Below, piece after piece: positions 19,840 to 47,855 of a stretch of DNA of 64,000 nucleotides. Source of the stretch: an uncultured Mageeibacillus sp. (GTDB lineage: Bacteria; Bacillota; Clostridia; Saccharofermentanales; DTU023); the NCBI GenBank assembly GCA_964606165.1, contig CAZSFQ010000003.1, positions 64,322 through 128,321 on the forward strand. Reading direction: 5' to 3'. The position numbers were made by a program, and so were the translations under genes. How positions within the stretch are numbered: position 1 is the first letter of the stretch; every line of letters begins with the position of its first letter. The notes beneath the pieces are model-generated. The model ran no database searches. It worked only from the letters and a program-made list of their open reading frames with translations, and was not told where the DNA came from.

Positions 19840-20844
19840 CTATTCCTCTTTTGGAGGGAAATCCCGGAAAATCTGATCGAAAAGCAGGTTGACACTTCTC
19901 TGTGTCTCGGAGCTCAGCTGCTCAAAGCGATTGAGCAGTTCACGACCTGTCACGGTCAGCTTGCTGCTTCCCCCCTCCTGGCCGCCTGGTTGCCGGTCGG
20001 CTACCGCCGCGCCCAGTTCCTCTTCCAGGATGTTGAGTATCTGCCAACCCTTGCTGTAGGAAAGTTTCATGCGGATACAGGCGGTCCGGACCGAGCCCGT
20101 CTCATCGATCAAACGCAGCAGGGTCGCGGGGCCGGGGCCGAAAAATACCGAATCACGGGCAAGACTCAGCTTGAGGCGGGCACGCATTGGCAAAGGATCC
20201 TCTTCGATCCATCCAGGCTTCCGGCCCGGGGAATCGACCAGCCTGTCCAAGCCGCTGAGAATTCCCGGGTCGCTGACGGCAATCCTTTCAACCGGACCCG
20301 GTGACAGGGAAACCAGATCAGCCGGGGTCTTCCCGGCTGATCGCCGGGGGATTTTCGCGATTACCCCCCGGTGAAAAGCAAGGGGCAGCCCCTCCTCGCC
20401 TTCAAAAACGGGAACAGCGACCGGCTCCCCCGACGCCAATAAGGTCATCAGCGTTTCCTTGCTGACCGAAGGAATCAGGGGTGTGGCCAGCAGTACTTTT
20501 TCGCAGGCCGGACAGGTCCTTTCCGCGTAGTCCAGACCCATCATGGCGTCGTCAAAAAAGGTGGACTCCTTCCAGTCTGGATTGTTGAGACACACGACGC
20601 TCATCCTGGCCAGATGGCGCTCCAGCAGCTCATTCTCAAATCCTGTAATCACGATAACCGGGGCTGTTCCGACGAGTTGGAAGCGGATGATCACCCGCTC
20701 TATCAAGGTCACCTGGCCCAGGCGGATCATGGCCGGGGGCAGGTCACGCTCATCGCCGGCGAATCCGGCCGCCGCAAGGGCTGGATCAGGTGGCTTGGAG
20801 GCGACGATGACCGCCGCCCCGCGTGCGGCTTGAACCAGGTTCAT
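19840..20844 (-). CDS. MocA/YgfJ-like nucleotidyltransferase domain with degenerate motifs, fused to a ModE-N-terminal-type winged-helix DNA-binding domain
   Basis: The N-terminal ~200 aa is MobA/MocA-like (VIVITGFENELLERHL, NNPDW). The C-terminal ~110 aa, FGPGPATLLRLIDETGSVRTACIRMKLSYSKGWQILNILEEELG...GGQEGGSSKLTVTGRELL, matches the ModE N-terminal HTH pattern. The start overlaps the xdh stop as ATGA. Confidence 0.65.
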   Translation of the reverse strand: MNLVQAARGAAVIVASKPPDPALAAAGFAGDERDLPPAMIRLGQVTLIERVIIRFQLVGTAPVIVITGFENELLERHLARMSVVCLNNPDWKESTFFDDAMMGLDYAERTCPACEKVLLATPLIPSVSKETLMTLLASGEPVAVPVFEGEEGLPLAFHRGVIAKIPRRSAGKTPADLVSLSPGPVERIAVSDPGILSGLDRLVDSPGRKPGWIEEDPLPMRARLKLSLARDSVFFGPGPATLLRLIDETGSVRTACIRMKLSYSKGWQILNILEEELGAAVADRQPGGQEGGSSKLTVTGRELLNRFEQLSSETQRSVNLLFDQIFRDFPPKEE

Positions 20845-23411
20845 GCCTTCTTCTTCCGGTAGAAGGTATCATCCATGGGAAGGCTGGTCCGCATCCTGCC
20901 ATCCAGCCGGAAGTAGGCGTGGGCGACAGAGGGCGCGATGGGAATACAGGCAAGCTCGCCGATTCCGCGGGCGCCGTAGGCGACGTCTACGTAGCCTGGT
21001 CCCTTGACGATATGGGTTTCGATTTCCGGGATGCGATTGGCCCGGAAAAGACCGTAAGTACCCAGTTTGAACTTGGGGATGCCGCCGGGGTTGACAAACT
21101 CTTCCGTCAAGGCATAGCCAAGGCCCATGACACAGCCGCCTTCAATTTGTCCTTCCACCGCGGTGACATTGACCGGCGTCCCGACATCGTAGGCACCCAC
21201 CATCCTTTGAATCTCCCCTTTTTCGTCAGGGATGGCCACCTCGCAGCCGTAGCTGTAGCCGATGTGGCTTACCGGATGCTCCTTGGGCGATCCGAGCGGA
21301 TCCGTGGGCGGACCGAATTCACCGAAGAACTCCATGCCCTCCATCCTGGAAAGGTCTCCGCCCACAGCGCCCAGGGCTGCTTTTAAGTCCTGAGCCGCCT
21401 GCCGTGCGGCCTCCCCGGTAAAGAGAGTCTGGCGCGAAGCCGTGCTGGTGCCGGCATCCGGCGTGCGGTCCGTATTGGGCAATTCAAAGACTGTATCGGT
21501 TACTTCACAGTCCAGGGTTTGACAAACAATCGAAGTCACCACCTGAGCGACACCCTGTCCTGAGCAGGCGGCAGACGTGCGGATGTGGATTTTCCCTTTC
21601 TCAACCGACAGGGTGCAGCGCCCGAAATCCGGAACACCGACGCCCAGGCCGCTGTTTTTGAAACTGCAGGCGATCCCCGCGTAAGGGCTGGATTCATAGG
21701 CTTCCCTGACCGCCTCAAGGCACTCGGCAAGGCCGCAGCTGGGATCGACAATCTGGCCGTTGGGGAGCACATCGCCCGGTCTGACTGCATTGAGATAGCG
21801 GAATTCCCAGGGGTCCATGCCGCACTTATCCGCCAGGAGGTTCAGGTTGCATTCCATGGCGTAGCAGCTTTGGGTGACTCCGAAACCCCGGAAGGCGCCC
21901 GAGACAACATTGTTGGTGTAAACGGCCTTGCCCGAGATGTCAATATTCTGAAAATTGTAGGGCCCCGCCGCGTGGGTACAGGCCCGCTGGGTGACGGGTC
22001 CGCCAAGCGAGGCGTAGGCGCCTGTATCGGCGATGATCTCCGCGACGAGGGCCGTCACGCGGCCGTCCGCGTCACAGGATGTTGTCATTTTCATGGTCAT
22101 GGGATGCCGTTTGGTATGGACAATGGTGCTTTCATAGCGGGACAGCCTGACATTGACCCGGCGCCCCGTTTTCCAGGCCAGCAGGGCCGCGTGATGCTGG
22201 ACACTCATGTCCTCACGGCCCCCGAAAGCGCCGCCGACCAGGGCTGACTGGACATGCACCCGCTCCGGCTCGATCTTCAGCATCTCGGACACTTCCCGCT
22301 GCTCATCGTAAATGGACTGGGAGGCTGTAATCAGGTGGACACCGCCATCTTCGGAAGGCCAGCCGATGGCGCACTCCGGCTCCAGAAAGGCATGTTCCTG
22401 CCATGAGACCTGGTAGGTTTCCGTCACCACATGCGCCGCCTCGGCGACAGCCTTGCGCGCGTCACCCCGGATCAGCCGTTCGCTTGACAGGATATTGCCC
22501 TTTTCATGGATCTTGGGGGCGCCTTCCTTCATGGCCTCAAAGGGATCAAGAAGAGGCTCAAGTTCCGTGTAGTCGACCTCAATCAGATCAAGCACTTCCT
22601 GGAGGCTCTCCCGCTTGCCTGTCGCCACCAGGGCGACCGAATCACCGATGTAGCGTGTAATCTCCCCCTCGGCTATCATGACATCCCAGTCCCGCACAAT
22701 GTGGCCGATTGTGTTGTTGGGCACATCAGCCGCGGTCAGAACCGCGACACAGTCTGGATGCTGGAGAGCCTTTGACACATCGATCCTGTTGACGCGGGCG
22801 CGCGGATAAGGGGTTCGCAGAGCCCGGCCGTAGATCATGTCGTCGAAGCTGTAGTCATCCGGGAATTTGCCGGTACCCAGCACCTTTTCCATGACGTCGA
22901 TGCGCTGGGACCGGTCCCCGACGCGGATCTCCTTATCTGCTTCGGGGATACTTTTATCCTCCCGAAAGAACCTGGCAGCCAACTCGATGGCGTCGATTAT
23001 TTTTTTATAGCCGGTACAGCGGCAGAGATTGCCTGTGATGGCCTTTTTGATTTCCTGGCGGGTCGGATCCGGATTTTGATCGAGAAGGACCTTGGCGGCC
23101 ATGACCATTCCCGGTGTGCAAAAACCGCACTGAACCGCGCCGCACTCGGCAAATGTATGGACATAAACTTCCTTCTCACGCGGGGTCAGACCCTCGACGG
23201 TCATGATACTGGATCCGTCAAACCTCGATACATTCATGATGCATGATTTGACAAGTTTGCCGTCCGCGATGACTGAGCAGGTGCCGCAGGTACCTTCACT
23301 GCAGCCATCCTTGACCGAGGTCAGGCCGAGATCGTCACGCAGAAAATCGATCAGCCGCTTATCCTCCGGAACACGATAAATCTGCCGGTTGACTGTTAGA
23401 GCCCAGGCCAT
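20841..23411 (-). CDS. xdhD: Molybdopterin-dependent hydroxylase of the XdhD / aldehyde-oxidoreductase type, with fused [2Fe-2S] and Mo-cofactor domains
   Basis: N-terminal GCSEGTCGTCSV, CGFCTPG and CRCTGY 2Fe-2S motifs, followed by ~700 aa of Ald_Xan_dh large-subunit sequence. The ATG at 23411 has an AAGGAGG RBS. Confidence 0.8.
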   Translation of the reverse strand: MAWALTVNRQIYRVPEDKRLIDFLRDDLGLTSVKDGCSEGTCGTCSVIADGKLVKSCIMNVSRFDGSSIMTVEGLTPREKEVYVHTFAECGAVQCGFCTPGMVMAAKVLLDQNPDPTRQEIKKAITGNLCRCTGYKKIIDAIELAARFFREDKSIPEADKEIRVGDRSQRIDVMEKVLGTGKFPDDYSFDDMIYGRALRTPYPRARVNRIDVSKALQHPDCVAVLTAADVPNNTIGHIVRDWDVMIAEGEITRYIGDSVALVATGKRESLQEVLDLIEVDYTELEPLLDPFEAMKEGAPKIHEKGNILSSERLIRGDARKAVAEAAHVVTETYQVSWQEHAFLEPECAIGWPSEDGGVHLITASQSIYDEQREVSEMLKIEPERVHVQSALVGGAFGGREDMSVQHHAALLAWKTGRRVNVRLSRYESTIVHTKRHPMTMKMTTSCDADGRVTALVAEIIADTGAYASLGGPVTQRACTHAAGPYNFQNIDISGKAVYTNNVVSGAFRGFGVTQSCYAMECNLNLLADKCGMDPWEFRYLNAVRPGDVLPNGQIVDPSCGLAECLEAVREAYESSPYAGIACSFKNSGLGVGVPDFGRCTLSVEKGKIHIRTSAACSGQGVAQVVTSIVCQTLDCEVTDTVFELPNTDRTPDAGTSTASRQTLFTGEAARQAAQDLKAALGAVGGDLSRMEGMEFFGEFGPPTDPLGSPKEHPVSHIGYSYGCEVAIPDEKGEIQRMVGAYDVGTPVNVTAVEGQIEGGCVMGLGYALTEEFVNPGGIPKFKLGTYGLFRANRIPEIETHIVKGPGYVDVAYGARGIGELACIPIAPSVAHAYFRLDGRMRTSLPMDDTFYRKKKA

Positions 23412-23455
23412 GATTGCTTCCTCCTTAATTGATCTTGCTTCCACTCACCCTTGAA

Positions 23456-24859
23456 TCAGCGGATATCCCGGTCCGGCAGCTGCCTTCTCAGGTACTGGCC
23501 ATCCGCTTCCTCAATCACAATCTTACCAGAAGCGACCTTGTGGCGGCCCCGCAAAAACACGTCACGCACCCTGCCTTTGAGCTCGAAGTTCTCGTAGGGG
23601 GTGTAGTCACAGTTTTCGTGGAGATCCTCCCCCTTGACCGTCCATCGCGGCTCGGGGTCGAAGACGACAATATCCGCGTCACTGCCCGCTTCCAGGATGC
23701 CCTTGCGGGGGTATAAACCGAAATATTTTGCCGCGTTGGTTGAGGCAACTTCGGAAAAACGATTGATGTCCATCCGGCCCTGGGCGACGCCATAGGTGTA
23801 GAGCAAGTGCATCCTCAGCTCAATCCCCGGCGCGCCGTTTGGGATTTTCGAAAAATCGTCCCGGCCCATTTCTTTCTGGCCCTTGAAATTGAAGGAGCAG
23901 TGATCGGTACCAACGAACTGGATTTCCCCGGACGCGAGTCCTTTCCAAAGGGCTTCCTGGTCCCGGCGCTCACGAAGCGGCGGGCTCATGATATACTTGG
24001 CCGCCTCAAAATCCTCACTGGTGGGTGTCCCGTAGCGGGAGGCGTCAAGGAGCAGGTACTGCGGACACGTTTCAACAAGGATATGGATGCCGCGTTCCCT
24101 GGACCGGTTGATGGCTGTCAGGCCCCTTGCTGTCGACAGGTGAACGATGTGGTGAGTGGCGTGAAGGAGGTGGTTGACCGCCTCCAGGCGCACGATGGCC
24201 TCTTCCTCCAGTTCGGCCGGCCGGCTGATCTGATGATAATAGGGTGATAAATGCCCCTTTTCGCGCTCACGGCGGACCAGGACATCGATGAGCAGGCCGT
24301 TTTCACAGTGAAAGCCAATGGTGGCCCCCAGACGCTGCGTTTCTTCCAGGGCATGGTAGATCTCATCCTCCTGGACCATCATGTTATCTTTGTAGGCCAT
24401 GTACATTTTGAAGGAGCTGACGCCGCCGGCAACGATTGATTCCATCTCCTTTTTCAGCTGGCTGTTCCACTCCGTCAGCGCCATATGGAAACCGTAGTCG
24501 ATGGCGCATTTGCCATCCGCTTTTTCGTGCCAGCGCTTCAGACCCTGGGCCATGGTTTCGCCGTGGAACTGGGTCGCGAAATCGATGACCGTTGTCGTGC
24601 CTCCGGCCAGGGCCGCCCGCGTACCGCTCGCGAAATCGTCGGCCGTCACCGTACCCATCGACTCCAGCTGGAGGTGGGTGTGGGTCTCGATCCCGCCCGG
24701 CAGGAAATAGAAACCGCGGCAGTCGAGCACCTCCTCGTTCTCACGGGGCGTCAGCTTGCCTGTTTCTTCAATGATTTCACCTTTGATTCGGATACTTCCC
24801 CGGACTGTTTCCCGGGGCAGGACGATGAAGCCGTCCTTGAGCAATAGGGATTGTTCCAT
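23456..24859 (-). CDS. hyuA: Dihydropyrimidinase / D-hydantoinase family cyclic amidohydrolase
   Basis: HTHLQL metal motif, SSFKMYMAYK (carboxylated Lys) and VGTDHCSF. 467 aa. Confidence 0.85.
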   Translation of the reverse strand: MEQSLLLKDGFIVLPRETVRGSIRIKGEIIEETGKLTPRENEEVLDCRGFYFLPGGIETHTHLQLESMGTVTADDFASGTRAALAGGTTTVIDFATQFHGETMAQGLKRWHEKADGKCAIDYGFHMALTEWNSQLKKEMESIVAGGVSSFKMYMAYKDNMMVQEDEIYHALEETQRLGATIGFHCENGLLIDVLVRREREKGHLSPYYHQISRPAELEEEAIVRLEAVNHLLHATHHIVHLSTARGLTAINRSRERGIHILVETCPQYLLLDASRYGTPTSEDFEAAKYIMSPPLRERRDQEALWKGLASGEIQFVGTDHCSFNFKGQKEMGRDDFSKIPNGAPGIELRMHLLYTYGVAQGRMDINRFSEVASTNAAKYFGLYPRKGILEAGSDADIVVFDPEPRWTVKGEDLHENCDYTPYENFELKGRVRDVFLRGRHKVASGKIVIEEADGQYLRRQLPDRDIR

Positions 24860-24879
24860 CTTAACCTCTTTGATTGATC

Positions 24880-24903
24880 AGCGCCCCGGCTCGCCGGGGC
24901 GCT
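24880..24903 (-). other. GC-rich intercistronic stem-loop between ssnA and hyuA
   Basis: AGCGCCCCGG-CGAG-CCGGGGCGCU forms a 10-bp perfect stem with no U-tract. Confidence 0.5.
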
Positions 24904-24911
24904 CCAGAGTC

Positions 24912-26234
24912 TTACAGATTCGGCCAGATGGCCGCGGCGCGTTTGGCTGTGCGGGCGAATATCTTCTTTTCATCAACCGTCAGTATCTCGCGGTTGCGCA
25001 TAACAAGCTTGCCGTTGATTACCACGTCATTGGTCATACGGCCGTAGCCGCCAAAAAGCAGATGGCCCTTCCAGTTGTCGCCGCCAAAAGGCGTGAAGGG
25101 GAAATAATCAAGCGTGATAACATCGGCATAGGCCCCCGCTTTCAAGACGCCCAGAGGCCGCTTGAAGTGAAGGGCCGCGATGGCCGGATTGCCCTCATAC
25201 TGCAATTGCAGCGCCTGGCTGAAACCGACCGTGGGGTCGGACAGGCGGTGGGACTGCAGAATTTTCGATACCTTGATTGATTCAAACATGTCGTGGGTGT
25301 AGGCGTCTGTCCCCAGTCCCAGCCGGATGCCGCGGCGCAGCATGCCAAGGACAGGGGTTGCCCCCACGGCGTTGCCCATGTTGGACATGGGGTTGTGGAC
25401 GACCGTGGTATCGGTTTCCGCCAGAATATCGAGTTCACGACCGTTGACATTGACGGCATGGACGGCGATGGATCTGGGACCCAGCAGGCCCCAGCCGAGC
25501 AGGCGCTCGGTCACCCTCATGTCGTACTTCTTCAGGCTGTCGTACTGATCCTCCCTGCCTTCGCCGACATGGATATGGTAGCCTGCCTCAATGCCATCCA
25601 TGGCCTTTTTGACCTTTTCCATGGTTTTGTCGGAGATGGTGAAAGAGGCGTGCATGCCGAACATGCCTTTCACCATATCCTGTTCATCGGTGTTCATGGC
25701 CTTGATGAAGTTGACGTTTTCCTTGATTTCCTGATCCGCGGTTTTCACACCGTCCCGGTCGGACAGCTCCATGGAAAAAGAGCCGCGGATGCCGGTCTTC
25801 TTTGCCGCCTCAGCCAGGGTAAACAGCGACCCCTCCACAGCATGGGGACTGGCGTGGTGGTCAAACAGGGTGGTCACACCGTTGCGGATGCTGTCGATGT
25901 AGGTCGTATAGGCTGACAGCTCGTTGTCTTCCATGGTCAGGCTTCGGTCGAGTGCCCACCAGAGGTTTTTCAGTATCTCGGGGAAATTCCGCGTCGGCTT
26001 TGATACCCCCATGCCCCGGGCGTAGGAGCTGTAGATATGGGTGTGCGCGTTGATCATGCCTGGCATGATGACGCGGCCCTGCGCGTCCAGCACCTCATCA
26101 TCCGGGTATTGTTTTTTCAAGTCATCAAAGTCGCCCACCGCGTCAATCAGCTGATCGACTATGCGCAGGCCGCCATTTTCAAAGTAGGGGTGATCGGGAT
26201 CGTTGGTCACCAGTCTTCCCTTGCCGATAATCAT
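24912..26234 (-). CDS. ssnA: SsnA-type putative aminohydrolase (chlorohydrolase / guanine-deaminase superfamily)
   Basis: 440 aa. MPGMINAHTHIYSS HxH motif with amidohydrolase His and Asp residues (HVGEG, HAVN, LGTD). Sits in ygfK-ssnA synteny. Confidence 0.75.
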   Translation of the reverse strand: MIIGKGRLVTNDPDHPYFENGGLRIVDQLIDAVGDFDDLKKQYPDDEVLDAQGRVIMPGMINAHTHIYSSYARGMGVSKPTRNFPEILKNLWWALDRSLTMEDNELSAYTTYIDSIRNGVTTLFDHHASPHAVEGSLFTLAEAAKKTGIRGSFSMELSDRDGVKTADQEIKENVNFIKAMNTDEQDMVKGMFGMHASFTISDKTMEKVKKAMDGIEAGYHIHVGEGREDQYDSLKKYDMRVTERLLGWGLLGPRSIAVHAVNVNGRELDILAETDTTVVHNPMSNMGNAVGATPVLGMLRRGIRLGLGTDAYTHDMFESIKVSKILQSHRLSDPTVGFSQALQLQYEGNPAIAALHFKRPLGVLKAGAYADVITLDYFPFTPFGGDNWKGHLLFGGYGRMTNDVVINGKLVMRNREILTVDEKKIFARTAKRAAAIWPNL

Positions 26235-26260
26235 CTTCTACCTCCTGTCAAATAGGCTGT

Positions 26261-29200
26261 TTAATGCTCATTGCAGTCATGTTCATTGTTCAGCAGCCAA
26301 GTGAAATCTTTTGTGACAGCCGTTATCACAGCCGCCATCTGCGCTCCTGCCTTCGCGGCCAGCTCGCTTTGCGGCACATCGAAAACACGGCCCCGGTCGT
26401 CGCGGATCCGGTATCTTCCTTCTGCCAGCCGCAGGAAGCCTGTGTTATCTGAATCGGAAAAATCTTCCCCGCTCCAGAAGACAGTCAGCTTATCTTTGTA
26501 CGGTTTGCCCGCGTGGGGACAGAAAGTGGCGCAGTTGCCGCATTCGTTGCACATGCCGTCGATGTGGACAATCTGTTCGGAATTGGCAAAACCCGGGATG
26601 GCCAGGGCCACATTGGCCCGGTTGGGGCAGACCTCCGTGCAGATACGACAGACCTGGTCGCAGATCAGGCAGCGCTGGCCTTCTTCCGGGGGCTGTTTTT
26701 CTTCCCTGAGTTCTCCCCTGCGTTCCAGGATGACCGCCTCATCGACAGGAACCCGCGCATGGACGAAATCGTGGTCCAGGCCCTCTCTGGACAGGATATC
26801 CAGGGCCGCCTTTTTTGCGTCGCCCATGGCCGCGACAACCGTTGACGGTCCCTTTCGGCAATCACCGATGACATAAAGGCCGTCAATTGAACTCTCCATG
26901 GCAGCTGACAGGCGCGGATCACCGTAGCGGTCCGTCTTCATGCCGATTTTCGTGAAGAGCTTCTTGTCAACGCGGGCACCGGTCGCGCCGATCACCGTGT
27001 CGAATTCAAGTGTTTCGAACCCGCCCGTTCCCAGTGAGGCACGGCGGCCTGATTCATCGAAATCGCCCAGTCTTTGTCTTTCGCAAACCAGCTTGCTGCC
27101 TTCATAACGGACGGGAGCCAGAAGCTCAAGCCATCCGATGCCCTCTTCCATGGCCGCATCGAATTCATCCTGGCTGGCGGGCGCGTACATCTCAGTCCGG
27201 CGGTAGACAATGGTCACCTCCGGATCGCCCGGCATCCGTTTCGCAAGCCTTGCAGCGTCCATGGCTACATCACCGGCGCCGATAACGGCCACCCGCTTGC
27301 CCAGGTCACGGGGACCTTCTTCCTTGACGCCGATCAGGAAGTCGAGCGCGTCGAGAACGCGGCCGCTTTCCTCTTCTACCGGCGGCCGCCCCTGCTCCCA
27401 CGCCCCGGTCGCAAGAATCAGGTAGTCATAGGACTTTTTCAGTTCATCCGGATCAAATTGCGGGTTGGCATTGAAATGGAAATTAACCCCGGCAGCTTCG
27501 ACCAGCCTGTAATCACGGTCAATCTGCTCTTCCGAGATACGGAAGGAAGGGATGGCATAGCGGACGATACCATGGGAAGCGGCACGCTTCTCAAAGACAT
27601 CGACCTCAACACCGTTTCTTCTGAGATAATAGGCCGCGGCCAGGCCTGCGGGGCCGGCGCCGATTACACAGGCTTTCTTATCGGTCTTCAGGGGGCTGAC
27701 CGACATCTTGCTGATGTAGGCATCCTGAGCCTGGTCGGCTGCCATCAGCTTGATATCCCTCATGTGCAAGGAGCTGTCATAGTCCAGGCGGGTGCACTTC
27801 TCCCGGCAGGGCTGGGCGCAAAGGACGCCTGTAATGGTGGGGCAGGGATTGTCGATGGCAATCACCCGCATGGCCTCATGGCAGTCACCCCTGGCGACCA
27901 GGGTATTGTATTCGGGTATCTGCTGTTCGATGGGGCAGCCGCCGTCCTTGCAGGGCGCCTTGTAACAGTCATAAAGAGGCAGTTCGGATCCGGTTTCCCT
28001 GGAAGCCACTTTCTCCCGCCAGCGTTTTTGCATGCGCGGGTCAGCCATGGTATCTTCTGCCAGTTTCTCCAGTTTGGCGACATCGATCCTGCCGCCCTTT
28101 CCGAGCAAGGATTCTGTTTCACGCGCCATCTGAGTCAGGCGCATATAGCCGCCTGGTTTCAAAAGTGTCGTCGCGACCGTCACCGGGCCGATTCCGGTTT
28201 CCAGCAGATCCTTCAAGTTGAAGGCGTCGGCGCCGCCCGCAAAGGATACAGGCAGCTTGCCGTCAAAGGCGCGCGACAGATTCAGGGCAAGGTTGATGGT
28301 CAGGGGCATCAGGGCCCGGCCCGACATGTACATCTCCTCCGACGGCACCTCGCCGCGCTTAACATCTACCGGACAGGTATTGGAAAGCTTGACGCCAAAG
28401 GCCAGTTTCTCTTTTCCGGCAACCGCCAGCATGCGGGTAAATATTCCGACCGCGTCTTCGTACTGCAGGTCGGCCAGAAAGTGTTTGTCGGGGAAGGCGA
28501 TGTAATCGTAGCCCAGATCGTCCAGTGTCCGGCGGACAAAATCATAGCCCAGCATGGTGGGGTTGCACTTGACGAAGGTATGAAGCTTTTTTTCGGTCAG
28601 AAGATAATGGGCAATCCGCTCGATCTCGTCCGGCGGGCACCCGTGGAGTGTCGACAGGGTTGCCTGATGGCAGATTTGCGGGGAGATGGCATCGATGACT
28701 GCTTGGTCAACCTTGTCGAAAAGATCTTGATGGCTTTTCAGGAATTGGATGGATTCGGTAAAAAGAGCAAGGCGCGACGCGTCCTTGAGGCCCTCGATGA
28801 AAGCGTCCATCTTGGGCAGTTTGATCCCGTCGAGATCATAGCCAAGGCTCATGTTGAAGGCAAAGTCATTGCCGTCGGACAGGTCGAATTCCACAGCCAG
28901 GACCTTGATGGCAATCCAGGCCTTGATGTACTCGTCGAAGGCTTCCTGGACGGTCAGCTCCGTCGACCACTCGCAGTTATAGCACTCGTCCTCGGCGTTG
29001 ATGCAGGGCTTGGCCACCGCCTGGCGGATTTCCTCACCATCCATCTTCTGGACCGTCTTCAGTTCAACAAAACGCGCGCCAGCCAGATAGGAGACAATGA
29101 TGTTCTGAGCCAGCTGGGAATGGGGGCCCGCTGCCGGCCCGACAACCGAGGCAATCCTGTCACCAAAGGGAGTGACGAAGCGGCTCCCCGACTGGTTCAC

Positions 29201-29308
29201 GTAAAATTTGCTCTTGTCGAGTCCAAAAACACTTCCCTGTGCTTTGTACTCATCAAGGCTCCACTCGATTAGATTCGCAAAGCTGATGGGTCTCATGATG
29301 TCGCTCAT
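26261..29308 (-). CDS. ygfK: YgfK-type Fe-S flavoprotein oxidoreductase (annotated in databases as putative selenate reductase subunit YgfK)
   Basis: 1015 aa. N-terminal DPD/DHODH-like barrel and central dinucleotide folds (VIGAGPAGLAAAYYL, VAVIGAGDVAMDAA). Cys clusters are CAQPCREKC, CLICDQVCRICTEVCP and CNECGNCATFCP. Confidence 0.8.
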   Translation of the reverse strand: MSDIMRPISFANLIEWSLDEYKAQGSVFGLDKSKFYVNQSGSRFVTPFGDRIASVVGPAAGPHSQLAQNIIVSYLAGARFVELKTVQKMDGEEIRQAVAKPCINAEDECYNCEWSTELTVQEAFDEYIKAWIAIKVLAVEFDLSDGNDFAFNMSLGYDLDGIKLPKMDAFIEGLKDASRLALFTESIQFLKSHQDLFDKVDQAVIDAISPQICHQATLSTLHGCPPDEIERIAHYLLTEKKLHTFVKCNPTMLGYDFVRRTLDDLGYDYIAFPDKHFLADLQYEDAVGIFTRMLAVAGKEKLAFGVKLSNTCPVDVKRGEVPSEEMYMSGRALMPLTINLALNLSRAFDGKLPVSFAGGADAFNLKDLLETGIGPVTVATTLLKPGGYMRLTQMARETESLLGKGGRIDVAKLEKLAEDTMADPRMQKRWREKVASRETGSELPLYDCYKAPCKDGGCPIEQQIPEYNTLVARGDCHEAMRVIAIDNPCPTITGVLCAQPCREKCTRLDYDSSLHMRDIKLMAADQAQDAYISKMSVSPLKTDKKACVIGAGPAGLAAAYYLRRNGVEVDVFEKRAASHGIVRYAIPSFRISEEQIDRDYRLVEAAGVNFHFNANPQFDPDELKKSYDYLILATGAWEQGRPPVEEESGRVLDALDFLIGVKEEGPRDLGKRVAVIGAGDVAMDAARLAKRMPGDPEVTIVYRRTEMYAPASQDEFDAAMEEGIGWLELLAPVRYEGSKLVCERQRLGDFDESGRRASLGTGGFETLEFDTVIGATGARVDKKLFTKIGMKTDRYGDPRLSAAMESSIDGLYVIGDCRKGPSTVVAAMGDAKKAALDILSREGLDHDFVHARVPVDEAVILERRGELREEKQPPEEGQRCLICDQVCRICTEVCPNRANVALAIPGFANSEQIVHIDGMCNECGNCATFCPHAGKPYKDKLTVFWSGEDFSDSDNTGFLRLAEGRYRIRDDRGRVFDVPQSELAAKAGAQMAAVITAVTKDFTWLLNNEHDCNEH

Positions 29309-29417
29309 ATATGGTCACCTCTCCTCATTTTCTGGTTTTACCCGGACAATAACCTGTCGCGCGGACAAGGCGGCTGATCTTTAGTTTATCAGTTTTGCCG
29401 CTTTTTTTAGAAGAAAT

Positions 29418-29447
29418 GACCGGGACTCCCTTTGGGGAATCCCGGTC
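29418..29447 (-). terminator. Probable intrinsic terminator after ygeY, internal to the cluster
   Basis: GACCGGGAUUCCCC-AAA-GGGAGUCCCGGUC imperfect hairpin followed on the minus strand by AUUUCUUCU. Confidence 0.5.
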
Positions 29448-29471
29448 AACGGTATCATCGGATTGGTTCGC

Positions 29472-30695
29472 TTACGCTTCCTTGGTAATGTCCACGTAGA
29501 GCGAAGGCATGACACTGTAAATCGCCGCGCAGCGGACGACGTCCTCTTTCCAGGTCACCTCGTTGGGCGCGTGAGCCTGAGCTTCCTTGCCAGGGCCGAG
29601 GCCGATGCAGGGGATGTCGTGGCGGCCCATGATGGCGACACCATTGGTTGAGAAGGTCCACTTATCGACCTTGGGCGCCTGGTAGAGATTGGTGTAGGCG
29701 TCCACCAGGGCCCGCGTCTGCGGCGCGTCCTCGGGAATAACCCAGGTGGGAAAATAGCAATCCTGCTCATAGACGAAGCCGGTCCAGGACGGGCGGTCGT
29801 ACTTGTACATGGTAACAACACCGCCATGCTTTTTGACGGATGGCAGGGCTTCGATTTCCGCTATTGCCGATTCCCAGGTCTCGCCCCAGGTCAGGCGGCG
29901 GTCCAGGGAAATGGCACAGCTGTCCGCGACCGCGCAGCGCGATGGCGAGGTGTAGAAAATCTGGGAAGTCGTGACTGTGCCCTTGCCCAGGAAGGGGTCG
30001 TCCTTGAGGTGGTTGTTGAGCTCTTCCACTTCCTTCAGGATGTCGGCCATTTTGTAGATGGCGTTCTCACCGCGCTCGGGGGCCGAGCCGTGGCAGGAAA
30101 TGCCCTTGACCTCAACACGGATCTCCATGCGGCCACGGTGTCCGCGGTAAACATGCATGTCGGTCGGTTCGGTCGAGACCACGAATTCGGGTCTGATGTT
30201 TTCGTTCTCAATGAGGTGGAGCCAGCACATGCCGTCGCAGTCTTCCTCCTGTACGGTGCCCGTGACCAAAAGCGTGACGTCGTCATCAATCATGCCCAGG
30301 TCCTTGGCAATTTTCGCGCCATAGACGGCCGATACAACGCCGCCCAGCTGGTCGGAAGCGCCGCGTCCGCCCACTTGGGTTTCAGTCTCAAATCCTTCGT
30401 AGGGGTCAAATTCCCAGTTGGTGATTTCGCCAATACCCACGGTATCGATATGGCCGTCAAAGGCGATGACGCGGTCGCCTGTGCCCATCCAGCCCAGCAC
30501 GTTGCCGAGCTGATCGAATTCGGCCTTGTCGTAACCGAGTTTTTCCATCTCTTCCTTGATGCGGCGGGCCACACCTTCCTCTTCACAGCTTTCGCCGGGA
30601 ATCTTGACCAGGTCGCGAAGGAACTTTACCATATCTTCTTTATAAGCCTCAGCGGCTTGGCGTACGCGGTCGTAATCAATTGCGGTTTTTGTCAT
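29472..30695 (-). CDS. ygeY: YgeY-type M20-family metallohydrolase (peptidase M20 / deacylase)
   Basis: M20 motifs [16 protein letters not shown] and TVQEED. The ATG at 30695 has an AAGGAG RBS; the ORF-track start at 30749 is an extension into ygeW. Confidence 0.8.
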
Positions 30696-30730
30696 CTTGG
30701 GTACACTCCTTTTATCAATTATATTTGGCT

Positions 30731-31927
30731 TTAAGCATTGTCCGCCCAACGGGGGGCTGCGCTCTTCCAGAGTTCTTCAAGCTTCGCGCCCGGAGCCTTG
30801 ATCTTCTGGAGGAAAATCATGGCCGCGATGATGTAAGGCTTGAAGCTGGCTTCTTTGTACAGGGGGATCCGGTAACGGTCAAAGACAGAAGCATCCACCT
30901 CGCCCTCCTCGCAGGAGACACCCGTGATGTCGGCCGGCAGGCAATGCATGTAGAGCGCCTTGCCGCCGCGCGTCAGCTTCATCATGTCTTCGGTACAGGC
31001 CCAGTCCTTATGGAGGGCATTTTGCGCCAGAAGTTCCTGCTCAAGTGCGTTGATGCCGGCCTGGTCGCCTTTGGCGTAGAGGTCCGTGCGGATTTCCATG
31101 GCCTTGAAGGGCGCCCAGCTCTTGGGGTAGACAACATCGGCATCCTTGAAAGCCTCCGCCATCGACTCGACGCGGGTGAACTTGCCGCCGTACATCTCCT
31201 CATTATGCCTGGCCACGCCTTCGATTTCGTCCATGATGTCATAGCCTTGCGGGTGGGCCAGGACAACTTCCATGCCAAAACGCGTCATCAGCCCTACGAT
31301 GCCTTGCGGGACCGACAGCGGTTTGCCGTAGGAGGGTGAATAGGCCCAGGTCATGGCAAGTTTCTTGCCTTTCAGGTTCTCAACGCCGCCGAACTCGTGG
31401 ATGATGTGGAGGGCATCGGCCATGGACTGGGTGGGGTGATCGATGTCACACTGCAGGTTGACCAGGGTCGGGCGCTGTTCAAGCACGCCGTCCTCATAGC
31501 CCTCCTTGACGTAATCCGAAAAACCCTTCATGTAGGTGTGACCCTTGCCGATGTACATGTCATCGCGAATGCCGATCACGTCCGCCATGAAGGAAATCAT
31601 GTTGGCTGTCTCCTTGACAGTCTCCCCGTGCGCGATCTGGGATTTGCCCTCATCAAAGTCCTGGACCTCAAGGCCGAGAAAATCACAGGCCGAGGCAAAG
31701 GAGAACCTTGTCCGGGTCGACTGGTCACGGAATAGCGAGATACCCAGCCCCGAGTCAAAAATTCGTGCACTCTTGTTATTCTCGCGGAGCTCGCGAAGCG
31801 CGTCGGCCACTGTGAAAATGGCCATAATCTCATCCTGGGACTTGTCCCAGGTAAGAAAGAAATCGTCCTGGTAGAGACCCCTGTAATCGTATCCTTCCAG
31901 TTGCTTGATCAGTTCATTGATTTTCAT
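30731..31927 (-). CDS. ygeW: YgeW-type (knotted) carbamoyltransferase
   Basis: Carbamoyl-phosphate motif STRTRFSF and the HCLP motif (YMHCLPAD). ~398 aa, longer than OTCase/ATCase, as expected for YgeW. Confidence 0.8.
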
Positions 31928-31965
31928 TCCTATCTCATTTCCTCTCTTGAATTGGGGTAGCAAAT

Positions 31966-33438
31966 CTACATGCTGGCAAGAACGCCTGCGCGCTCGTTGA
32001 ACTCTTCTGTCAGGCGGTCGATTTCATAAACCTGGTTATGGATGTTGTGCCAGTAATTGTCGTCATACCACTGCGCGTTGAGCTCTTCCAGCGAGCGGCC
32101 CTGTTGCTCGACCCAGGTGTAGTACTTGAGGTTGTGGACACGCCTGCGTGTCCAATAGGTGAACTCTTCCATGTGGTCGACCTTCATGGATTTCAAGTTG
32201 TGCCAGTAGTCGCGGGCAGCCAGTTCATAGCTGTATTCTGCTTCTTCATCGAGCTCAAGGATGCGTGACTGGTACATCTCGGCCGAGTCGGTTGCGACGG
32301 TCAGCAGGACGTCTTTTTCAGTCAATTCGTAGTATTTGGCCATCTTGATCAGGCCCAGGACATTGGCAATGCCGCTGATGCCCAAGAATGACAGTTCCTC
32401 CAGCGCCTGTTTGGACAGGCCTGTTTCCTTCATCAGGTAGTCGTGTCCGACTTCCGAGTTGAAAAGGCGGAGCAGATTCTGGGTGTTGTTGTCATCAATG
32501 GCGACAACCATATCGGTATTCTTGACATTGTGGACAAAGGGGATGTGCTTGTCACCGATGCCCTCGATGCGGTGTCCGCCAAAACCGTTGTTAAGGATGG
32601 TCGGGCATTGCAGGGCCTCGCCCACCGCCACCTTTATGTGGGGGAATTTCTCTTTGAGGTAATCGCCCGCGCTCAAACTGCCTCCGCTGCCGCTTGTAAA
32701 GAAGGCGCCGAACAGCCTGGAATCTTCATCTTTGATTTCATTGTAGACTTCTTCAAGGGCGGGGCCGGTCGCATGGAAGTGCCACAGCACGTTGCCCATC
32801 TCCTCAAACTGATTGAAAATGAAGGCGTCCGGACGTGTCGCGCGGATTTCCTTGACCTTGGCGAAAATTTCATAGACATCACTCTCGCAGCCGGGGGTCG
32901 CGATCACTTCATCCGCGATACTCTGCAGCCAGTCGAAACGCTCCTGGCTCATTTCCTCGGGCAAAATGGCGATTGATTTACAACCCAGCAGCTTTGAGTT
33001 GAAAGCGCCTCCGCGGCAGTAGTTGCCGGTTGACGGCCAAACAGCCCAATTCTCATAAGGGTCAAACTGACCGGTCACAAGACGGGGAACCAAACAGCCG
33101 TACGAAGCGCCGACCTTGTGGCAGCCGGTGGGGAACCATTTGCCGACCATGACAAAGACGCGTGCCTTGATAGCAGTCAATTCCTTGGGAATTTCAATAT
33201 AATTAACCCCGTCGTATCCGCCGCCGTCACGTCTCGGCTCGTTCTTCCATGTAATGCGGAACAAGTTAAGCGGATTGACGTCATCTGTGTTGACATTTTG
33301 TAGAGCTTTTTTGATTTTGTCGGGAACGTTTTCAACTGGATTGCGCAATTGCGCGAAAGTTGGAATAATGATTTTGTTCTCACGCGCGCGTTTAATGGCG
33401 CTCTCGAGACCGTCCTCACGGATCGTCAGATCGATCAT
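31966..33438 (-). CDS. PLP-dependent enzyme of the tryptophan-synthase-beta (PALP) fold, ~490 aa; specific function unknown
   Basis: FPTGCHKVGAS (PLP-lysine motif analogous to NPTGSFKDRGA) and the Gly-rich loop FFTSGSGGSLSAG. The ATG at 33438 has an AAGGAG RBS. First gene of the cluster. Confidence 0.7.
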   Translation of the reverse strand: MIDLTIREDGLESAIKRARENKIIIPTFAQLRNPVENVPDKIKKALQNVNTDDVNPLNLFRITWKNEPRRDGGGYDGVNYIEIPKELTAIKARVFVMVGKWFPTGCHKVGASYGCLVPRLVTGQFDPYENWAVWPSTGNYCRGGAFNSKLLGCKSIAILPEEMSQERFDWLQSIADEVIATPGCESDVYEIFAKVKEIRATRPDAFIFNQFEEMGNVLWHFHATGPALEEVYNEIKDEDSRLFGAFFTSGSGGSLSAGDYLKEKFPHIKVAVGEALQCPTILNNGFGGHRIEGIGDKHIPFVHNVKNTDMVVAIDDNNTQNLLRLFNSEVGHDYLMKETGLSKQALEELSFLGISGIANVLGLIKMAKYYELTEKDVLLTVATDSAEMYQSRILELDEEAEYSYELAARDYWHNLKSMKVDHMEEFTYWTRRRVHNLKYYTWVEQQGRSLEELNAQWYDDNYWHNIHNQVYEIDRLTEEFNERAGVLASM

Positions 33439-33574
33439 TGTTTTTCTCCTTGCTAAGTGATTGTAGGTGATAGGTTGGGCCGGGCTCCGAAAGAAACCCA
33501 AACCTCAACAACTATAGCACATAATATTGTAATAAAGACAGGCCGGCTTGGCTAACAAATTTAAGACACATTTG

Positions 33575-39659: not shown

Positions 39660-39807
39660 TGCCCTATCCTCCATCTATCTATTAGTCATCGGGCAACACT
39701 GACTCCTCAAAACGTGTCCTCATCCATGGCCAAGCCTATGCTCCTGATTTGAACAAAGTTTGAAGTTGCCGCAGCTGTAACTCTGGTTCTCACTTTGCAT
39801 GGAACAG

Positions 39808-47748: not shown

Positions 47749-47855
47749 GCCAACACTCCTTCCGTCCGTCAAGGCGATCCGCTCTGATTCGGCATTATTC
47801 TACCACTCCCTTTGGTAAGATGAGTTTAAGAACTCAAGACAAAGAGGTGATGGGG

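What the first reader, a model, noticed from the sequence alone, without database searches (positions are those of the whole stretch)
19840..33438. Eight-gene selenium-linked molybdenum-hydroxylase / reductive purine-ring catabolism cluster with non-canonical membership
**Gene order and packing.** On the minus strand the order is PALP-fold enzyme, ygeW-type carbamoyltransferase, ygeY-type M20 hydrolase, a terminator-like hairpin, then ygfK-type Fe-S flavoprotein, ssnA-type aminohydrolase, hydantoinase/dihydropyrimidinase, XdhD-like Mo hydroxylase and a MocA-like::HTH fusion. Intergenic gaps are 26-52 nt, apart from the 163-nt ygeY-ygfK spacer that holds the hairpin. There is one ATGA overlap.

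**Known context (from memory).** This gene set matches the E. coli ygeW-...-xdhD neighbourhood. Comparative-genomics work tied that neighbourhood to orphan SelD and a labile selenium cofactor. Gut-microbiome studies from 2023 linked it to anaerobic urate consumption. The enzymology of most steps remains thinly characterised.

**What is unusual here.** This version lacks several usual partners within the window: YgeX diaminopropionate ammonia-lyase, carbamate kinase, the FAD subunit (YgfM/XdhB) and YqeB/YqeC. It carries two unusual proteins instead, described in separate findings. A Sec-containing selD with selA and selB lies 12 kb away.
Basis: partly seen in the sequence, partly recalled or inferred. 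Interest (0 to 1): 0.7.

Follow-up and report, generated by a model that had tools for sequence, protein, structure and literature searches.

The report
Variant anaerobic uric-acid degradation gene cluster
This is a real eight-gene cluster for the anaerobic, selenium-dependent breakdown of uric acid to pyruvate (a pathway solved in 2025), in a clostridial version where the usual last enzyme (YgeX) is absent and an uncharacterised cysteine-synthase-like enzyme sits in its place.

Summary
Eight minus-strand genes lie at 19840-33438, with the stated gaps, one ATGA overlap and a strong hairpin after ygeY. Curated HMMs put six products above cut-off in YgeW, YgeY, YgfK, SsnA, D-hydantoinase and the selenium-dependent Fe-S/Mo hydroxylase family TIGR03311, which is not E. 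coli XdhD. This is the 2,8-dioxopurine (reductive uric acid) pathway reconstituted in 2025, so the cluster type is known.

No YgeX, carbamate kinase, YgfM, YqeB or YqeC is in the window. Lacking the FAD subunit is normal for clostridial enzymes, and off-cluster carbamate kinase has precedent.

The real deviation is the first gene, a 490-aa PLP enzyme with a CysK/CBS-like fold ("PALP490"). Its family is highly conserved and unnamed. Among 48 ygeW loci with adequate flanks, 28 of 28 without PALP490 carry YgeX, 4 of 20 with it do, and none lacks both. I infer, without proof, that PALP490 replaces YgeX at the terminal step.

The "MocA-like::HTH" protein has lost the MocA nucleotide loop and catalytic Asp. 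It is probably a regulator, not a cytidylyltransferase.

Verdict: a new variant of a known system, of moderate interest.

The parts
31966..33438 (-). PALP490: a 490-aa fold-type-II PLP enzyme resembling CysK/CBS/beta-substituted-alanine synthases, with N- and C-terminal helical extensions. It is the first gene of the upstream operon and the candidate replacement for YgeX.
   Evidence: Pfam PALP scores 47.9 bits. The best NCBIfam hit is CysK at 96.6 bits against a cut-off of 351, and no DAP ammonia-lyase model hits. The PLP lysine (CHK108), Asn loop PSTGNY, NQFEE and GSGGS motifs are conserved. The AF2 model has pLDDT 81, and its Foldseek top hits are OASS, beta-cyanoalanine synthase, CBS and SbnA.
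30731..31927 (-). ygeW: knotted carbamoyltransferase. It cleaves one ureido group of 2,3-diureidopropionate by phosphorolysis, giving carbamoyl phosphate.
   Evidence: TIGR03316 scores 755 bits against a cut-off of 500. The function is taken from 10.1101/2025.04.24.650524 and 10.1101/2025.05.19.654654.
29472..30695 (-). ygeY: M20 hydrolase. It hydrolyses the remaining ureido group to give 2,3-diaminopropionate.
   Evidence: TIGR03526 scores 653 bits against a cut-off of 321.
29417..29448 (-). Intrinsic-terminator-like hairpin that splits the cluster into two transcription units.
   Evidence: The stem has 14 bp and is followed by a T-run. Folding energy is -28.1 kcal/mol, z = -6.4. A hairpin plus T-run sits at the same position in L001, L006, L007, L010, L012, L013, L015 and L018, with different stem sequences.
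26261..29308 (-). ygfK: Fe-S flavoprotein (2,8-dioxopurine reductase, DOPOR). It dearomatises 2,8-dioxopurine.
   Evidence: TIGR03315 scores 1313 bits against a cut-off of 835.
24912..26234 (-). ssnA: amidohydrolase that opens the reduced purine ring.
   Evidence: NF005540 scores 579 bits against a cut-off of 444, and TIGR03314 scores 520 against 455.
23456..24859 (-). hyuA: D-hydantoinase/dihydropyrimidinase. It opens ureidomethyl-hydantoin to 2,3-diureidopropionate.
   Evidence: TIGR02033 scores 554 bits against a cut-off of 393.
20841..23411 (-). Fused [2Fe-2S]/molybdopterin hydroxylase of the selenium-dependent family (XdhAC/DOPDH type). It has no FAD domain. It is inferred to reduce uric acid to 2,8-dioxopurine.
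   Evidence: TIGR03311 scores 1280 bits against a cut-off of 830, while TIGR03313 (XdhD) scores only 232 against 1102. Pfam finds Fer2, Fer2_2, Ald_Xan_dh_C and MoCoBD_1/2. The best solved relatives are D. gigas aldehyde oxidoreductase and the Se-dependent nicotinate dehydrogenase of E. barkeri.
19840..20844 (-). Degenerate MocA-like NTP-transferase domain fused to a ModE-type winged HTH. It is a probable regulator, translationally coupled to the Mo enzyme through the ATGA overlap.
   Evidence: NTP_transf_3 scores 39.6 bits. The ModE N-terminal domain scores 55 bits over aa 237-324. MocA TIGR03310 scores only 29 bits against a cut-off of 186. Alignment A2 shows that the AAGxSSRMG loop and the DxP aspartate are lost in this subgroup but kept in distant relatives. 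The same position after the Mo enzyme is seen in L087, and after hyuA or ssnA in L013, L015 and L018.
45625..46668 (+). selD (selenophosphate synthetase) with selenocysteine at codon 17. It is the selenium donor that the Mo hydroxylase requires. It lies outside the cluster.
   Evidence: TIGR00476 scores 348 bits. The in-frame TGA falls in SAGG*GAK. The SelD requirement of DOPDH was shown in C. sporogenes (10.1101/2025.04.24.650524).

Best explanation
The locus encodes the reductive (2,8-dioxopurine) pathway of anaerobic uric acid degradation, split into two transcription units by a terminator.

**Downstream unit (ygfK-ssnA-hyuA-Mo enzyme-regulator).** The selenium-dependent Fe-S/Mo hydroxylase removes the 6-oxo group of uric acid to give 2,8-dioxopurine. 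YgfK reduces (dearomatises) that product. SsnA opens the pyrimidine ring to ureidomethyl-hydantoin. HyuA opens the hydantoin to 2,3-diureidopropionate.

**Upstream unit (PALP490-ygeW-ygeY).** YgeW cleaves one ureido group by phosphorolysis to carbamoyl phosphate. The carbamate kinase that would turn this into ATP must be encoded elsewhere. YgeY hydrolyses the second ureido group to 2,3-diaminopropionate.

**Basis for these steps.** They are shown experimentally for the E. coli, C. sporogenes and C. difficile orthologues. Here they are assigned by equivalog-level HMM matches and synteny.

**Inferred steps.**
- PALP490, a CysK-like PLP enzyme, takes the place of the missing YgeX. It would perform the final alpha,beta-elimination through an aminoacrylate intermediate, yielding pyruvate and ammonia from diaminopropionate, or possibly directly from the mono-ureido intermediate.
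- The last gene is a regulator built from a catalytically dead MocA-like domain and a ModE-type DNA-binding domain. It is not a working cytidylyltransferase.
- Selenium comes from the SelD encoded 12 kb away. YqeB/YqeC, MocA and the low-potential electron donor must be encoded outside the window.
For: **Pathway identity.**
- Six products exceed curated equivalog cut-offs.
- The domain architecture of the Mo enzyme ([2Fe-2S] + MoCo, no FAD) equals that described for C. sporogenes XdhAC/DOPDH (10.1101/2025.04.24.650524).
- Its nearest solved relatives include the Se-dependent nicotinate dehydrogenase. This agrees with the published placement of DOPDH.
- Gene order is conserved in related MAGs, and so is the terminator position.

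**PALP490 as YgeX replacement.**
- It is co-oriented with ygeW, 38 nt upstream, behind an extended -10 promoter (TGCTATAGT) that is conserved in the six closest relatives (L001, L006-L009 and the window).
- It lies within 10 kb of ygeW in 32 of 86 family loci (85 fetched loci plus the window), in at least six different arrangements across several clostridial families.
- Among ygeW loci with at least 3 kb on both sides, YgeX is present in 28 of 28 without PALP490 and in only 4 of 20 with it. No locus lacks both. Fisher p = 2e-9, not corrected for phylogeny.
- All PLP-binding and carboxylate-binding motifs of beta-replacement/elimination enzymes are intact.

**Regulator.** The MocA G-loop and Asp are lost while the HTH is conserved. 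It holds a fixed position after the Mo enzyme. A similar degenerate fusion occurs in gut-type clusters.
Against: - No experiment exists for any protein of this organism.
- PALP490 co-occurs with YgeX in four loci (L057, L059, L072, L145).
- 54 of 86 PALP490 loci show no uric-acid gene within 10 kb.
- Outside the window's clade its steady neighbour is a threonine-synthase-family gene, often with serC. That fits an amino-acid biosynthetic role just as well.
- CysK-type enzymes normally act on L-amino acids, whereas the published pathway proposes the R (D) configuration.
- The NCBIfam name of the Mo enzyme is 'xanthine dehydrogenase', and its substrate specificity was not testable. The Glu606 marker of EcXdhD lies in an XdhD-specific insertion that is absent here.
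- The whole genome could not be searched for ygeX, arcC or yqeBC.
Confidence: 0.8

Rival explanations
1. PALP490 is not a pathway enzyme. It is a conserved amino-acid-metabolism enzyme, for example an O-phosphoserine- or O-acetylserine-dependent beta-replacement enzyme working alongside ThrC and SerC, that merely neighbours the cluster. The terminal diaminopropionate step would be done by a YgeX encoded elsewhere.
For: - The fold and motifs are those of cysteine synthases.
- A threonine-synthase-family gene (TIGR00260, 210 bits against a cut-off of 167) is adjacent in 32 of 85 loci, and serC follows in 9.
- 54 of 86 loci have no uric-acid genes within 10 kb. In Christensenellaceae the gene sits among housekeeping genes.
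- It co-occurs with YgeX in 4 loci.
Against: - In the window's clade it is the first gene of the ygeW-ygeY operon, with no ThrC or SerC in the window.
- It shows a strong inverse relation with YgeX, and no ygeW locus lacks both.
- No cysE-like neighbour was seen.
- In non-uric-acid loci its neighbours are again purine-related in about 12 cases (BMP-type nucleoside ABC transporter, DeoD).
Confidence: 0.3
2. PALP490 acts one step earlier. It would beta-eliminate the ureido group (as urea or carbamate) from 2-amino-3-ureidopropionate (albizziin) and give pyruvate directly, making YgeY partly or wholly dispensable.
For: - Relatives L012 and L013 keep PALP490-ygeW but have no ygeY before the terminator.
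- Li et al. place albizziin, with its free alpha-amino group and beta leaving group, as the YgeW product (10.1101/2025.05.19.654654).
- CysK-family enzymes typically handle beta-substituted alanines (established knowledge of the family).
Against: - ygeY is present and intact in the window and in most relatives.
- The order of ureido cleavage is disputed (PMC12990295).
- Urea was not detected in classical studies, as cited in 10.1101/2025.05.19.654654.
- ygeY could lie elsewhere in the L012 and L013 genomes.
Confidence: 0.15
3. The Mo enzyme is a true selenium-dependent xanthine dehydrogenase, as its NCBIfam name says, and the cluster starts from xanthine or hypoxanthine rather than from urate reduction.
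For: TIGR03311 is named 'selenium-dependent xanthine dehydrogenase'. From my own knowledge, the E. faecalis member was reported to have xanthine dehydrogenase activity.
Against: - The cluster-embedded fused Fe-S/Mo enzyme of C. sporogenes was shown to interconvert urate and 2,8-dioxopurine selectively (10.1101/2025.04.24.650524).
- YgfK and SsnA act on 2,8-dioxopurine, not on xanthine, in both studies.
- The enzyme here is syntenic with ygfK-ssnA-hyuA.
Confidence: 0.1
4. This is a divergent paralogous locus. A second, canonical cluster with ygeX, arcC, yqeB and yqeC exists elsewhere in the genome and does the real work.
For: The partners are missing from 64 kb. Yet YqeBC and SelD were found in all cluster-bearing strains studied (10.1101/2025.04.24.650524), so at least yqeBC must lie elsewhere.
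Against: - All six core proteins score as equivalogs with high bit scores, not as divergent paralogues.
- The same YgeX-less arrangement is conserved in 15 related loci from different MAGs and samples.
- The proteins are 72-96% identical across those relatives, which indicates purifying selection.
Confidence: 0.1

Closest known systems
Clostridium sporogenes 2,8-dioxopurine pathway cluster (xdhAC/DOPDH, ygfK/DOPOR, ssnA, hyuA, ygeW, ygeY, ygeX; Liu et al. 2025, 10.1101/2025.04.24.650524)
   Same: It shares the fused Fe-S/Mo hydroxylase without an FAD subunit, full-length YgfK, SsnA, HyuA, YgeW and YgeY. It also shares selenium dependence through SelD. In C. sporogenes, too, carbamate kinase is encoded outside the cluster.
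   Different: There is no YgeX here, and a 490-aa CysK-like PLP enzyme heads the ygeW-ygeY operon instead. A degenerate MocA::HTH protein is coupled to the Mo enzyme. No yqeB or yqeC lies nearby.
E. coli ygeW-ygeX-ygeY-hyuA-yqeA ... mocA-ygfK-ssnA-ygfM-xdhD region (Li et al. 2025, 10.1101/2025.05.19.654654; locus L086)
   Same: It shares orthologous YgeW, YgeY, HyuA, YgfK and SsnA and the same overall chemistry.
   Different: The E. coli Mo enzyme is XdhD (TIGR03313) with the FAD subunit YgfM and uses NADH. The window enzyme is only 27% identical and belongs to TIGR03311. E. coli also has YgeX, YqeA, YqeB, YqeC, a functional MocA and the sigma-54 regulator YgeV, all of which are absent here.
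C. difficile variant cluster (UacX for YgfK, UacY for YgeW/YqeA; Li et al. 2025)
   Same: It is a precedent for non-orthologous replacement of individual steps in clostridial versions of the pathway, and for a Mo enzyme without YgfM.
   Different: The replaced steps differ. Here YgfK and YgeW are the canonical ones, and the terminal PLP step appears to be the one replaced.
O-acetylserine sulfhydrylase / cystathionine beta-synthase / SbnA family (fold-type II PLP, beta-substituted alanine synthases)
   Same: PALP490 shares the fold (TM 0.74-0.79 to target), the Schiff-base lysine, the Asn loop, the Gln motif and the phosphate loop.
   Different: PALP490 is about 180 residues longer, with helical N- and C-terminal extensions. 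It scores 96.6 bits against a cut-off of 351 for CysK. Its lysine context is CHKVG rather than SVKDR. Its genomic context is purine catabolism.
MocA (CTP:molybdopterin cytidylyltransferase) and ModE (molybdate-responsive regulator)
   Same: The N-terminal domain is homologous to MobA/MocA-type NTP transferases. The C-terminal domain is homologous to the ModE N-terminal DNA-binding domain.
   Different: The MocA nucleotide-binding loop and the Asp of the DxP motif are lost. There are no Mop/molybdate-binding domains.

Membership tests
2,8-dioxopurine / reductive uric acid degradation gene cluster | Presence of SsnA, the marker enzyme used by Li et al., at equivalog level | tested here: met
   NF005540 scores 579 bits against a cut-off of 444, and TIGR03314 scores 520 against 455.
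2,8-dioxopurine / reductive uric acid degradation gene cluster | A dearomatising reductase (YgfK or UacX) adjacent to SsnA | tested here: met
   TIGR03315 scores 1313 bits against a cut-off of 835. ygfK ends 26 nt before ssnA.
2,8-dioxopurine / reductive uric acid degradation gene cluster | XDH-family Mo hydroxylase in the cluster (XdhD+YgfM or XdhAC) | tested here: met
   TIGR03311 scores 1280 bits against a cut-off of 830, with Fe-S and MoCo domains and no FAD domain.
2,8-dioxopurine / reductive uric acid degradation gene cluster | HyuA, YgeW (or UacY) and YgeY for ring opening and ureido cleavage | tested here: met
   TIGR02033 scores 554 bits, TIGR03316 scores 755 and TIGR03526 scores 653, all above their cut-offs.
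2,8-dioxopurine / reductive uric acid degradation gene cluster | YgeX-type diaminopropionate ammonia-lyase | tested here: not met
   No DAP ammonia-lyase model hits at E <= 1e-5. tblastn with EcYgeX finds only a 46-residue match inside PALP490, E = 7e-4. The rest of the genome could not be tested.
2,8-dioxopurine / reductive uric acid degradation gene cluster | Actual anaerobic, Se/Mo-dependent conversion of urate to 2,8-dioxopurine and on to pyruvate | not testable with these tools
   This needs culture or enzyme assays.
Selenium-cofactor trait (SelD + YqeB + YqeC) | SelD present | tested here: met
   TIGR00476 scores 348 bits, with Sec at codon 17.
Selenium-cofactor trait (SelD + YqeB + YqeC) | YqeB and YqeC present | tested here: inconclusive
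   Both are absent from the 64-kb window. Genome-wide presence was not testable. Other PALP490-containing clusters (L128, L003) do carry yqeB or yqeC nearby.
E. coli XdhD family (TIGR03313) | Score above the family cut-off and a partner FAD subunit YgfM | tested here: not met
   The score is 232 bits against a cut-off of 1102. Identity to EcXdhD is 27%. No YgfM is in the window.
YgeX / diaminopropionate ammonia-lyase (for PALP490) | Sequence or structural membership in the DAPAL subfamily | tested here: not met
   There is no NCBIfam DAPAL hit. The top 60 PDB sequence hits and top 50 fold hits are all CysK, CBS, beta-cyanoalanine synthase or SbnA-type enzymes.
CysK / O-acetylserine sulfhydrylase (for PALP490) | Equivalog-level score and a length of about 300-330 aa | tested here: not met
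   TIGR01139 scores 96.6 bits against a cut-off of 351. The protein has 490 aa with extra N- and C-terminal segments.
CysK / O-acetylserine sulfhydrylase (for PALP490) | Catalytic motifs: Schiff-base Lys, Asn loop, Gln, Gly-rich phosphate loop | tested here: met
   K108, S136-T-G-N-Y, N209-Q-F and G250-S-G-G-S align with the CysK motifs. All but the third position of the Gly-rich loop are invariant across 15 family members, and that position is G or A.
MocA cytidylyltransferase (for the last gene) | N-terminal AAGxSxRMG nucleotide-binding loop and the Asp of the DxP motif | tested here: not met
   Alignment A2 shows ASKPPDP...AGFAGDERDLPPAM and TPLIPSV in the window subgroup. E. coli MocA has AAGLSSRMG and HGDMP, and the distant fusion relatives have AAGMSSRMG and PVDIP. 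TIGR03310 scores 29 bits against a cut-off of 186.
ModE (for the last gene) | N-terminal winged-HTH DNA-binding domain | tested here: met
   TIGR00637 scores 55 bits over aa 237-324, which is below the whole-protein cut-off of 98.5. PDB 2ijl matches at E = 2.4e-11 and ModE 1b9m at 1.4e-5.
ModE (for the last gene) | C-terminal Mop (molybdate-binding) domains | tested here: not met
   The protein ends at aa 334, right after the HTH domain. No Mop or TOBE hit was found.

The most novel reading that the evidence does not exclude
PALP490 defines a previously unrecognised PLP enzyme family. In many Clostridia it would be the terminal enzyme of the reductive uric acid pathway, a non-orthologous replacement of YgeX that acts on diaminopropionate or directly on ureido-alanine. 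Outside this clade it might work together with a ThrC-like partner. If so, gene-marker surveys that require ygeX, or that count any PF00291 protein as YgeX, misjudge which bacteria degrade urate. In addition, the pseudo-MocA::ModE-HTH protein would be a new kind of regulator that reads Mo-cofactor or nucleotide status through a dead cytidylyltransferase domain.
Probability: 0.4. Interest if true: 0.6.

Novelty: new variant of a known kind. Interest (0 to 1): 0.45.

Why it matters
Gut and digester bacteria with this pathway remove urate, which is relevant to hyperuricaemia and gout. Current surveys identify them by marker genes that include ygeX (for example 10.1101/2022.12.12.520169), or by the generic PALP Pfam domain (10.1101/2025.05.19.654654).

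If a second, unrelated PLP enzyme closes the pathway in a sizeable share of Clostridia, those surveys undercount or mislabel degraders. The enzyme would also add a new catalyst to a pathway whose late steps and stereochemistry are still debated (PMC12990295).

The degenerate MocA::HTH protein offers a testable handle on how expression of a selenium/molybdenum enzyme is tied to cofactor supply.

The cluster as a whole, however, is an ordinary member of a pathway that is now well described.

Tried and rejected
- **Rfam searches.** A whole-window search at gathering thresholds and permissive searches of the two leader/spacer regions found no riboswitch. The only hit was the terminator hairpin matching the 3' end of an unrelated sRNA model at E = 0.07.
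- **PALP490 leader.** The sequence-conserved 5' leader (ATCAYCTACCATCAC before the RBS) gave no consensus structure in RNAalifold. I dropped the idea of a structured RNA element.
- **tRNA-Sec.** ARAGORN found no tRNA in the window.
- **DOPDH active-site markers.** I tried to check the published markers (bovine F1009V, A1078T/S). Mammalian XOR chains never reached the displayed alignments, so this went untested. The EcXdhD Glu606 marker falls in an XdhD-specific insertion absent from the window enzyme and from EcXdhA, so it is uninformative here.
- **PALP490 as a divergent YgeX.** Rejected on sequence and fold.
- **ThrC-like neighbour.** I considered whether the ThrC-like gene of other clades is the real YgeX substitute. 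It is absent from the window and its clade, so it cannot be the common factor.
- **Literature.** Searches found no paper that characterises PALP490 or mentions it in these clusters.

Full report
**Observation.** Eight co-oriented minus-strand genes are present as described:
- PALP-fold gene, 33438-31966
- ygeW, 31927-30731
- ygeY, 30695-29472
- ygfK, 29308-26261
- ssnA, 26234-24912
- hydantoinase, 24859-23456
- Fe-S/Mo hydroxylase, 23411-20841
- NTP-transferase-like::HTH gene, 20844-19840

The gaps are 38, 35, 163, 26, 52 and 44 nt, and the last two genes overlap by ATGA. The 163-nt spacer holds a 14-bp G+C-rich hairpin followed by a U-run (29448-29417). Its folding energy is -28.1 kcal/mol, z = -6.4. 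In eight related loci a hairpin plus T-run sits at the same place with different stem sequences. It is therefore a conserved intrinsic terminator, or attenuation point, that divides the cluster into PALP490-ygeW-ygeY and ygfK-ssnA-hyuA-Mo enzyme-regulator. The six closest relatives (L001, L006-L009 and the window) share an extended -10 promoter (TGCTATAGT) upstream of the first gene.

**Identity of the proteins.** NCBIfam equivalog models are exceeded for six products:

| Product | Model | Bits | Cut-off |
|---|---|---|---|
| YgeW | TIGR03316 | 755 | 500 |
| YgeY | TIGR03526 | 653 | 321 |
| YgfK | TIGR03315 | 1313 | 835 |
| SsnA | NF005540 | 579 | 444 |
| D-hydantoinase | TIGR02033 | 554 | 393 |
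| Se-dependent Mo hydroxylase | TIGR03311 | 1280 | 830 |

The Mo enzyme is not XdhD. It scores 232 bits against a cut-off of 1102 for TIGR03313 and is 27% identical to EcXdhD. It is a fused [2Fe-2S]-MoCo protein without an FAD domain. Its closest solved relatives are D. gigas aldehyde oxidoreductase and the selenium-dependent nicotinate dehydrogenase. This matches the published description of C. sporogenes XdhAC/DOPDH (10.1101/2025.04.24.650524).

**What is known.** Two 2025 studies reconstituted the pathway: 10.1101/2025.04.24.650524, and 10.1101/2025.05.19.654654 (also PMC12507026), with a commentary in PMC12990295. The steps are:
1. Urate is reduced to 2,8-dioxopurine by XdhAC, or by XdhD-YgfM in E. 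coli.
2. YgfK dearomatises it.
3. SsnA and then HyuA open the rings, giving 2,3-diureidopropionate.
4. YgeW releases carbamoyl phosphate, which carbamate kinase converts to ATP.
5. YgeY gives 2,3-diaminopropionate.
6. YgeX gives pyruvate.

DOPDH needs SelD, and all cluster-bearing strains studied had YqeB/YqeC. Carbamate kinase lay outside the cluster in 3 of 39 strains, and the clostridial Mo enzymes lack YgfM.

**Surroundings.** The window shows a Gram-positive anaerobe signature: AddAB, an LCP transferase, an isopeptide pilin and Rex. The nearest public relatives of the locus are MAGs labelled Mageeibacillus or Saccharofermentanales, with proteins 85-94% identical. selD (Sec at codon 17), selA and selB start 12.2 kb from the cluster. 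tblastn at E <= 1 and family scans of the remaining ORFs find no YgeX, YqeA, YqeB, YqeC or YgfM and no purine permease in the 64 kb. The whole genome could not be searched.

**PALP490.** The first gene encodes a 490-aa fold-type-II PLP enzyme.
- *Relationship to known enzymes.* Only weak CysK/CBS-type hits are found (96.6 bits against a cut-off of 351), and no diaminopropionate ammonia-lyase hit. The Schiff-base lysine, Asn loop, Gln motif and phosphate loop of CysK-type enzymes are conserved. The AlphaFold model (pLDDT 81) matches O-acetylserine sulfhydrylases, beta-cyanoalanine synthase, CBS and SbnA, not DAPAL.
- *Family.* It is large, unnamed and strongly conserved: 63-94% identity across Clostridia, at least 582 species-level genomes, and few 50%-identity clusters.
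- *Genomic context.* In 32 of 86 family loci (85 fetched loci plus the window) it lies within 10 kb of ygeW and other pathway genes, in at least six different arrangements. These include Lachnospiraceae, Ruminococcus, Formimonas and the window's clade.
- *Independent sample.* I fetched 80 metagenome loci anchored on YgeW. Most show the canonical order ygeX-ygeY-ygeW-yqeA.
- *Relation to YgeX.* Pooling all ygeW loci with at least 3 kb on both sides gives the result below. No locus lacks both enzymes, and Fisher p = 2e-9. The samples are not phylogenetically independent and were drawn in two ways, so the p-value is indicative only.

| ygeW loci with adequate flanks | With YgeX | Without YgeX |
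|---|---|---|
| PALP490 present (20) | 4 | 16 |
| PALP490 absent (28) | 28 | 0 |

This pattern is what non-orthologous displacement of the terminal enzyme would give.

**Counter-evidence on PALP490.**
- Four loci have both enzymes.
- 54 of 86 family loci show no pathway gene nearby, although about 12 of these have a nucleoside-type ABC transporter or DeoD.
- Outside the window's clade the constant neighbour is a threonine-synthase-family gene, often followed by serC. That would also fit a biosynthetic role.
- Relatives L012 and L013 lack ygeY. This hints that the enzyme might act directly on a mono-ureido intermediate.

I put about 0.45 on PALP490 being the terminal pathway enzyme. No paper found mentions it. 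One survey counts any PF00291 protein as YgeX, which would hide the difference.

**The last gene.** It combines an NTP_transf_3 domain (weak; MocA model 29 bits against a cut-off of 186) with a ModE-type winged HTH. The fusion family is small (62 clusters).
- Its distant members sit among Mo-cofactor maturation genes. They keep the MocA signature AAGxSSRMG and the Asp of the DxP motif.
- The subgroup that follows the Mo enzyme in uric-acid clusters, including the window protein, has lost both.
- A similarly degenerate fusion sits between the Mo enzyme and ygeX in gut-type clusters.

It is therefore most likely a regulator using a dead MocA-like domain as a sensor, not the cytidylyltransferase for this enzyme. 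What it senses is unknown.

**Verdict.** The cluster is a member of a pathway that is now well characterised. Its compositional variant is shared by a whole lineage and, for PALP490, by many Clostridia. The one element with real discovery potential is the apparent replacement of YgeX by an uncharacterised PLP enzyme family, which a few enzyme assays could settle.

Noticed in passing
window 33575-34405 (-): A VTT/DedA-type membrane protein gene lies directly upstream of PALP490. The same gene precedes PALP490 in 11 loci of the window's clade. From my own knowledge, DedA-family proteins have been linked to selenite uptake, so it could be a transporter serving the cluster.
   Followed up: partly
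window 17259-19175 (-) and 19194-19706 (-): An AMP-binding acyl-CoA-ligase-like gene follows the pseudo-MocA::HTH gene here, with a 170-aa Pro/Ala-rich membrane ORF in between. The same ligase follows it in L087 and L013. It has no obvious role in the pathway.
   Followed up: no
L012 and L013 (relatives), between ygeW and ygfK: These two related loci have PALP490-ygeW-terminator-ygfK with no ygeY. L013 also lacks the Mo enzyme between hyuA and the regulator gene.
   Followed up: partly
L136/L138/L139, e.g. L138 5827-6774 (+): Human-gut-type clusters carry a 315-aa protein between the Mo enzyme and ygeX that also has a degenerate MocA-like N-terminus and a C-terminal HTH. It is 26-27% identical to the window protein. 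The pseudo-MocA regulator may therefore be a common, overlooked accessory of clostridial urate clusters.
   Followed up: partly
L003-L005, L017-L064 and other PALP490 loci: PALP490 is often next to a threonine-synthase-family gene with an N-terminal zinc ribbon (32 of 85 loci). It is sometimes next to serC, a BMP-type nucleoside ABC transporter, deoD, a PucR-type regulator or a short YqeB-like gene.
   Followed up: partly
window 45625-51205 (+): selD carries an in-frame TGA (Sec) at codon 17 (45673-45675). An ATP-grasp gene on the opposite strand (46669-47772) separates selD from selA. selA and selB overlap by 4 nt. No tRNA-Sec gene is in the window.
   Followed up: partly
window 35550-39674 (-): A 1374-aa isopeptide-domain pilin gene lies between the glycosyltransferase and the Tim44-like gene. 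It is absent at that position in the otherwise syntenic relatives L001 and L002, so it is a lineage-specific insertion.
   Followed up: no
window 33439-33520 (-): The 5' leader of PALP490 is sequence-conserved in close relatives (ATCAYCTACCATCAC just before the RBS). RNAalifold found no consensus structure and Rfam had no match. Just after the stop codon of the upstream gene there is also a perfect 8-bp inverted repeat, TAACAAAT-N8-ATTTGTTA (about 33552-33575).
   Followed up: partly
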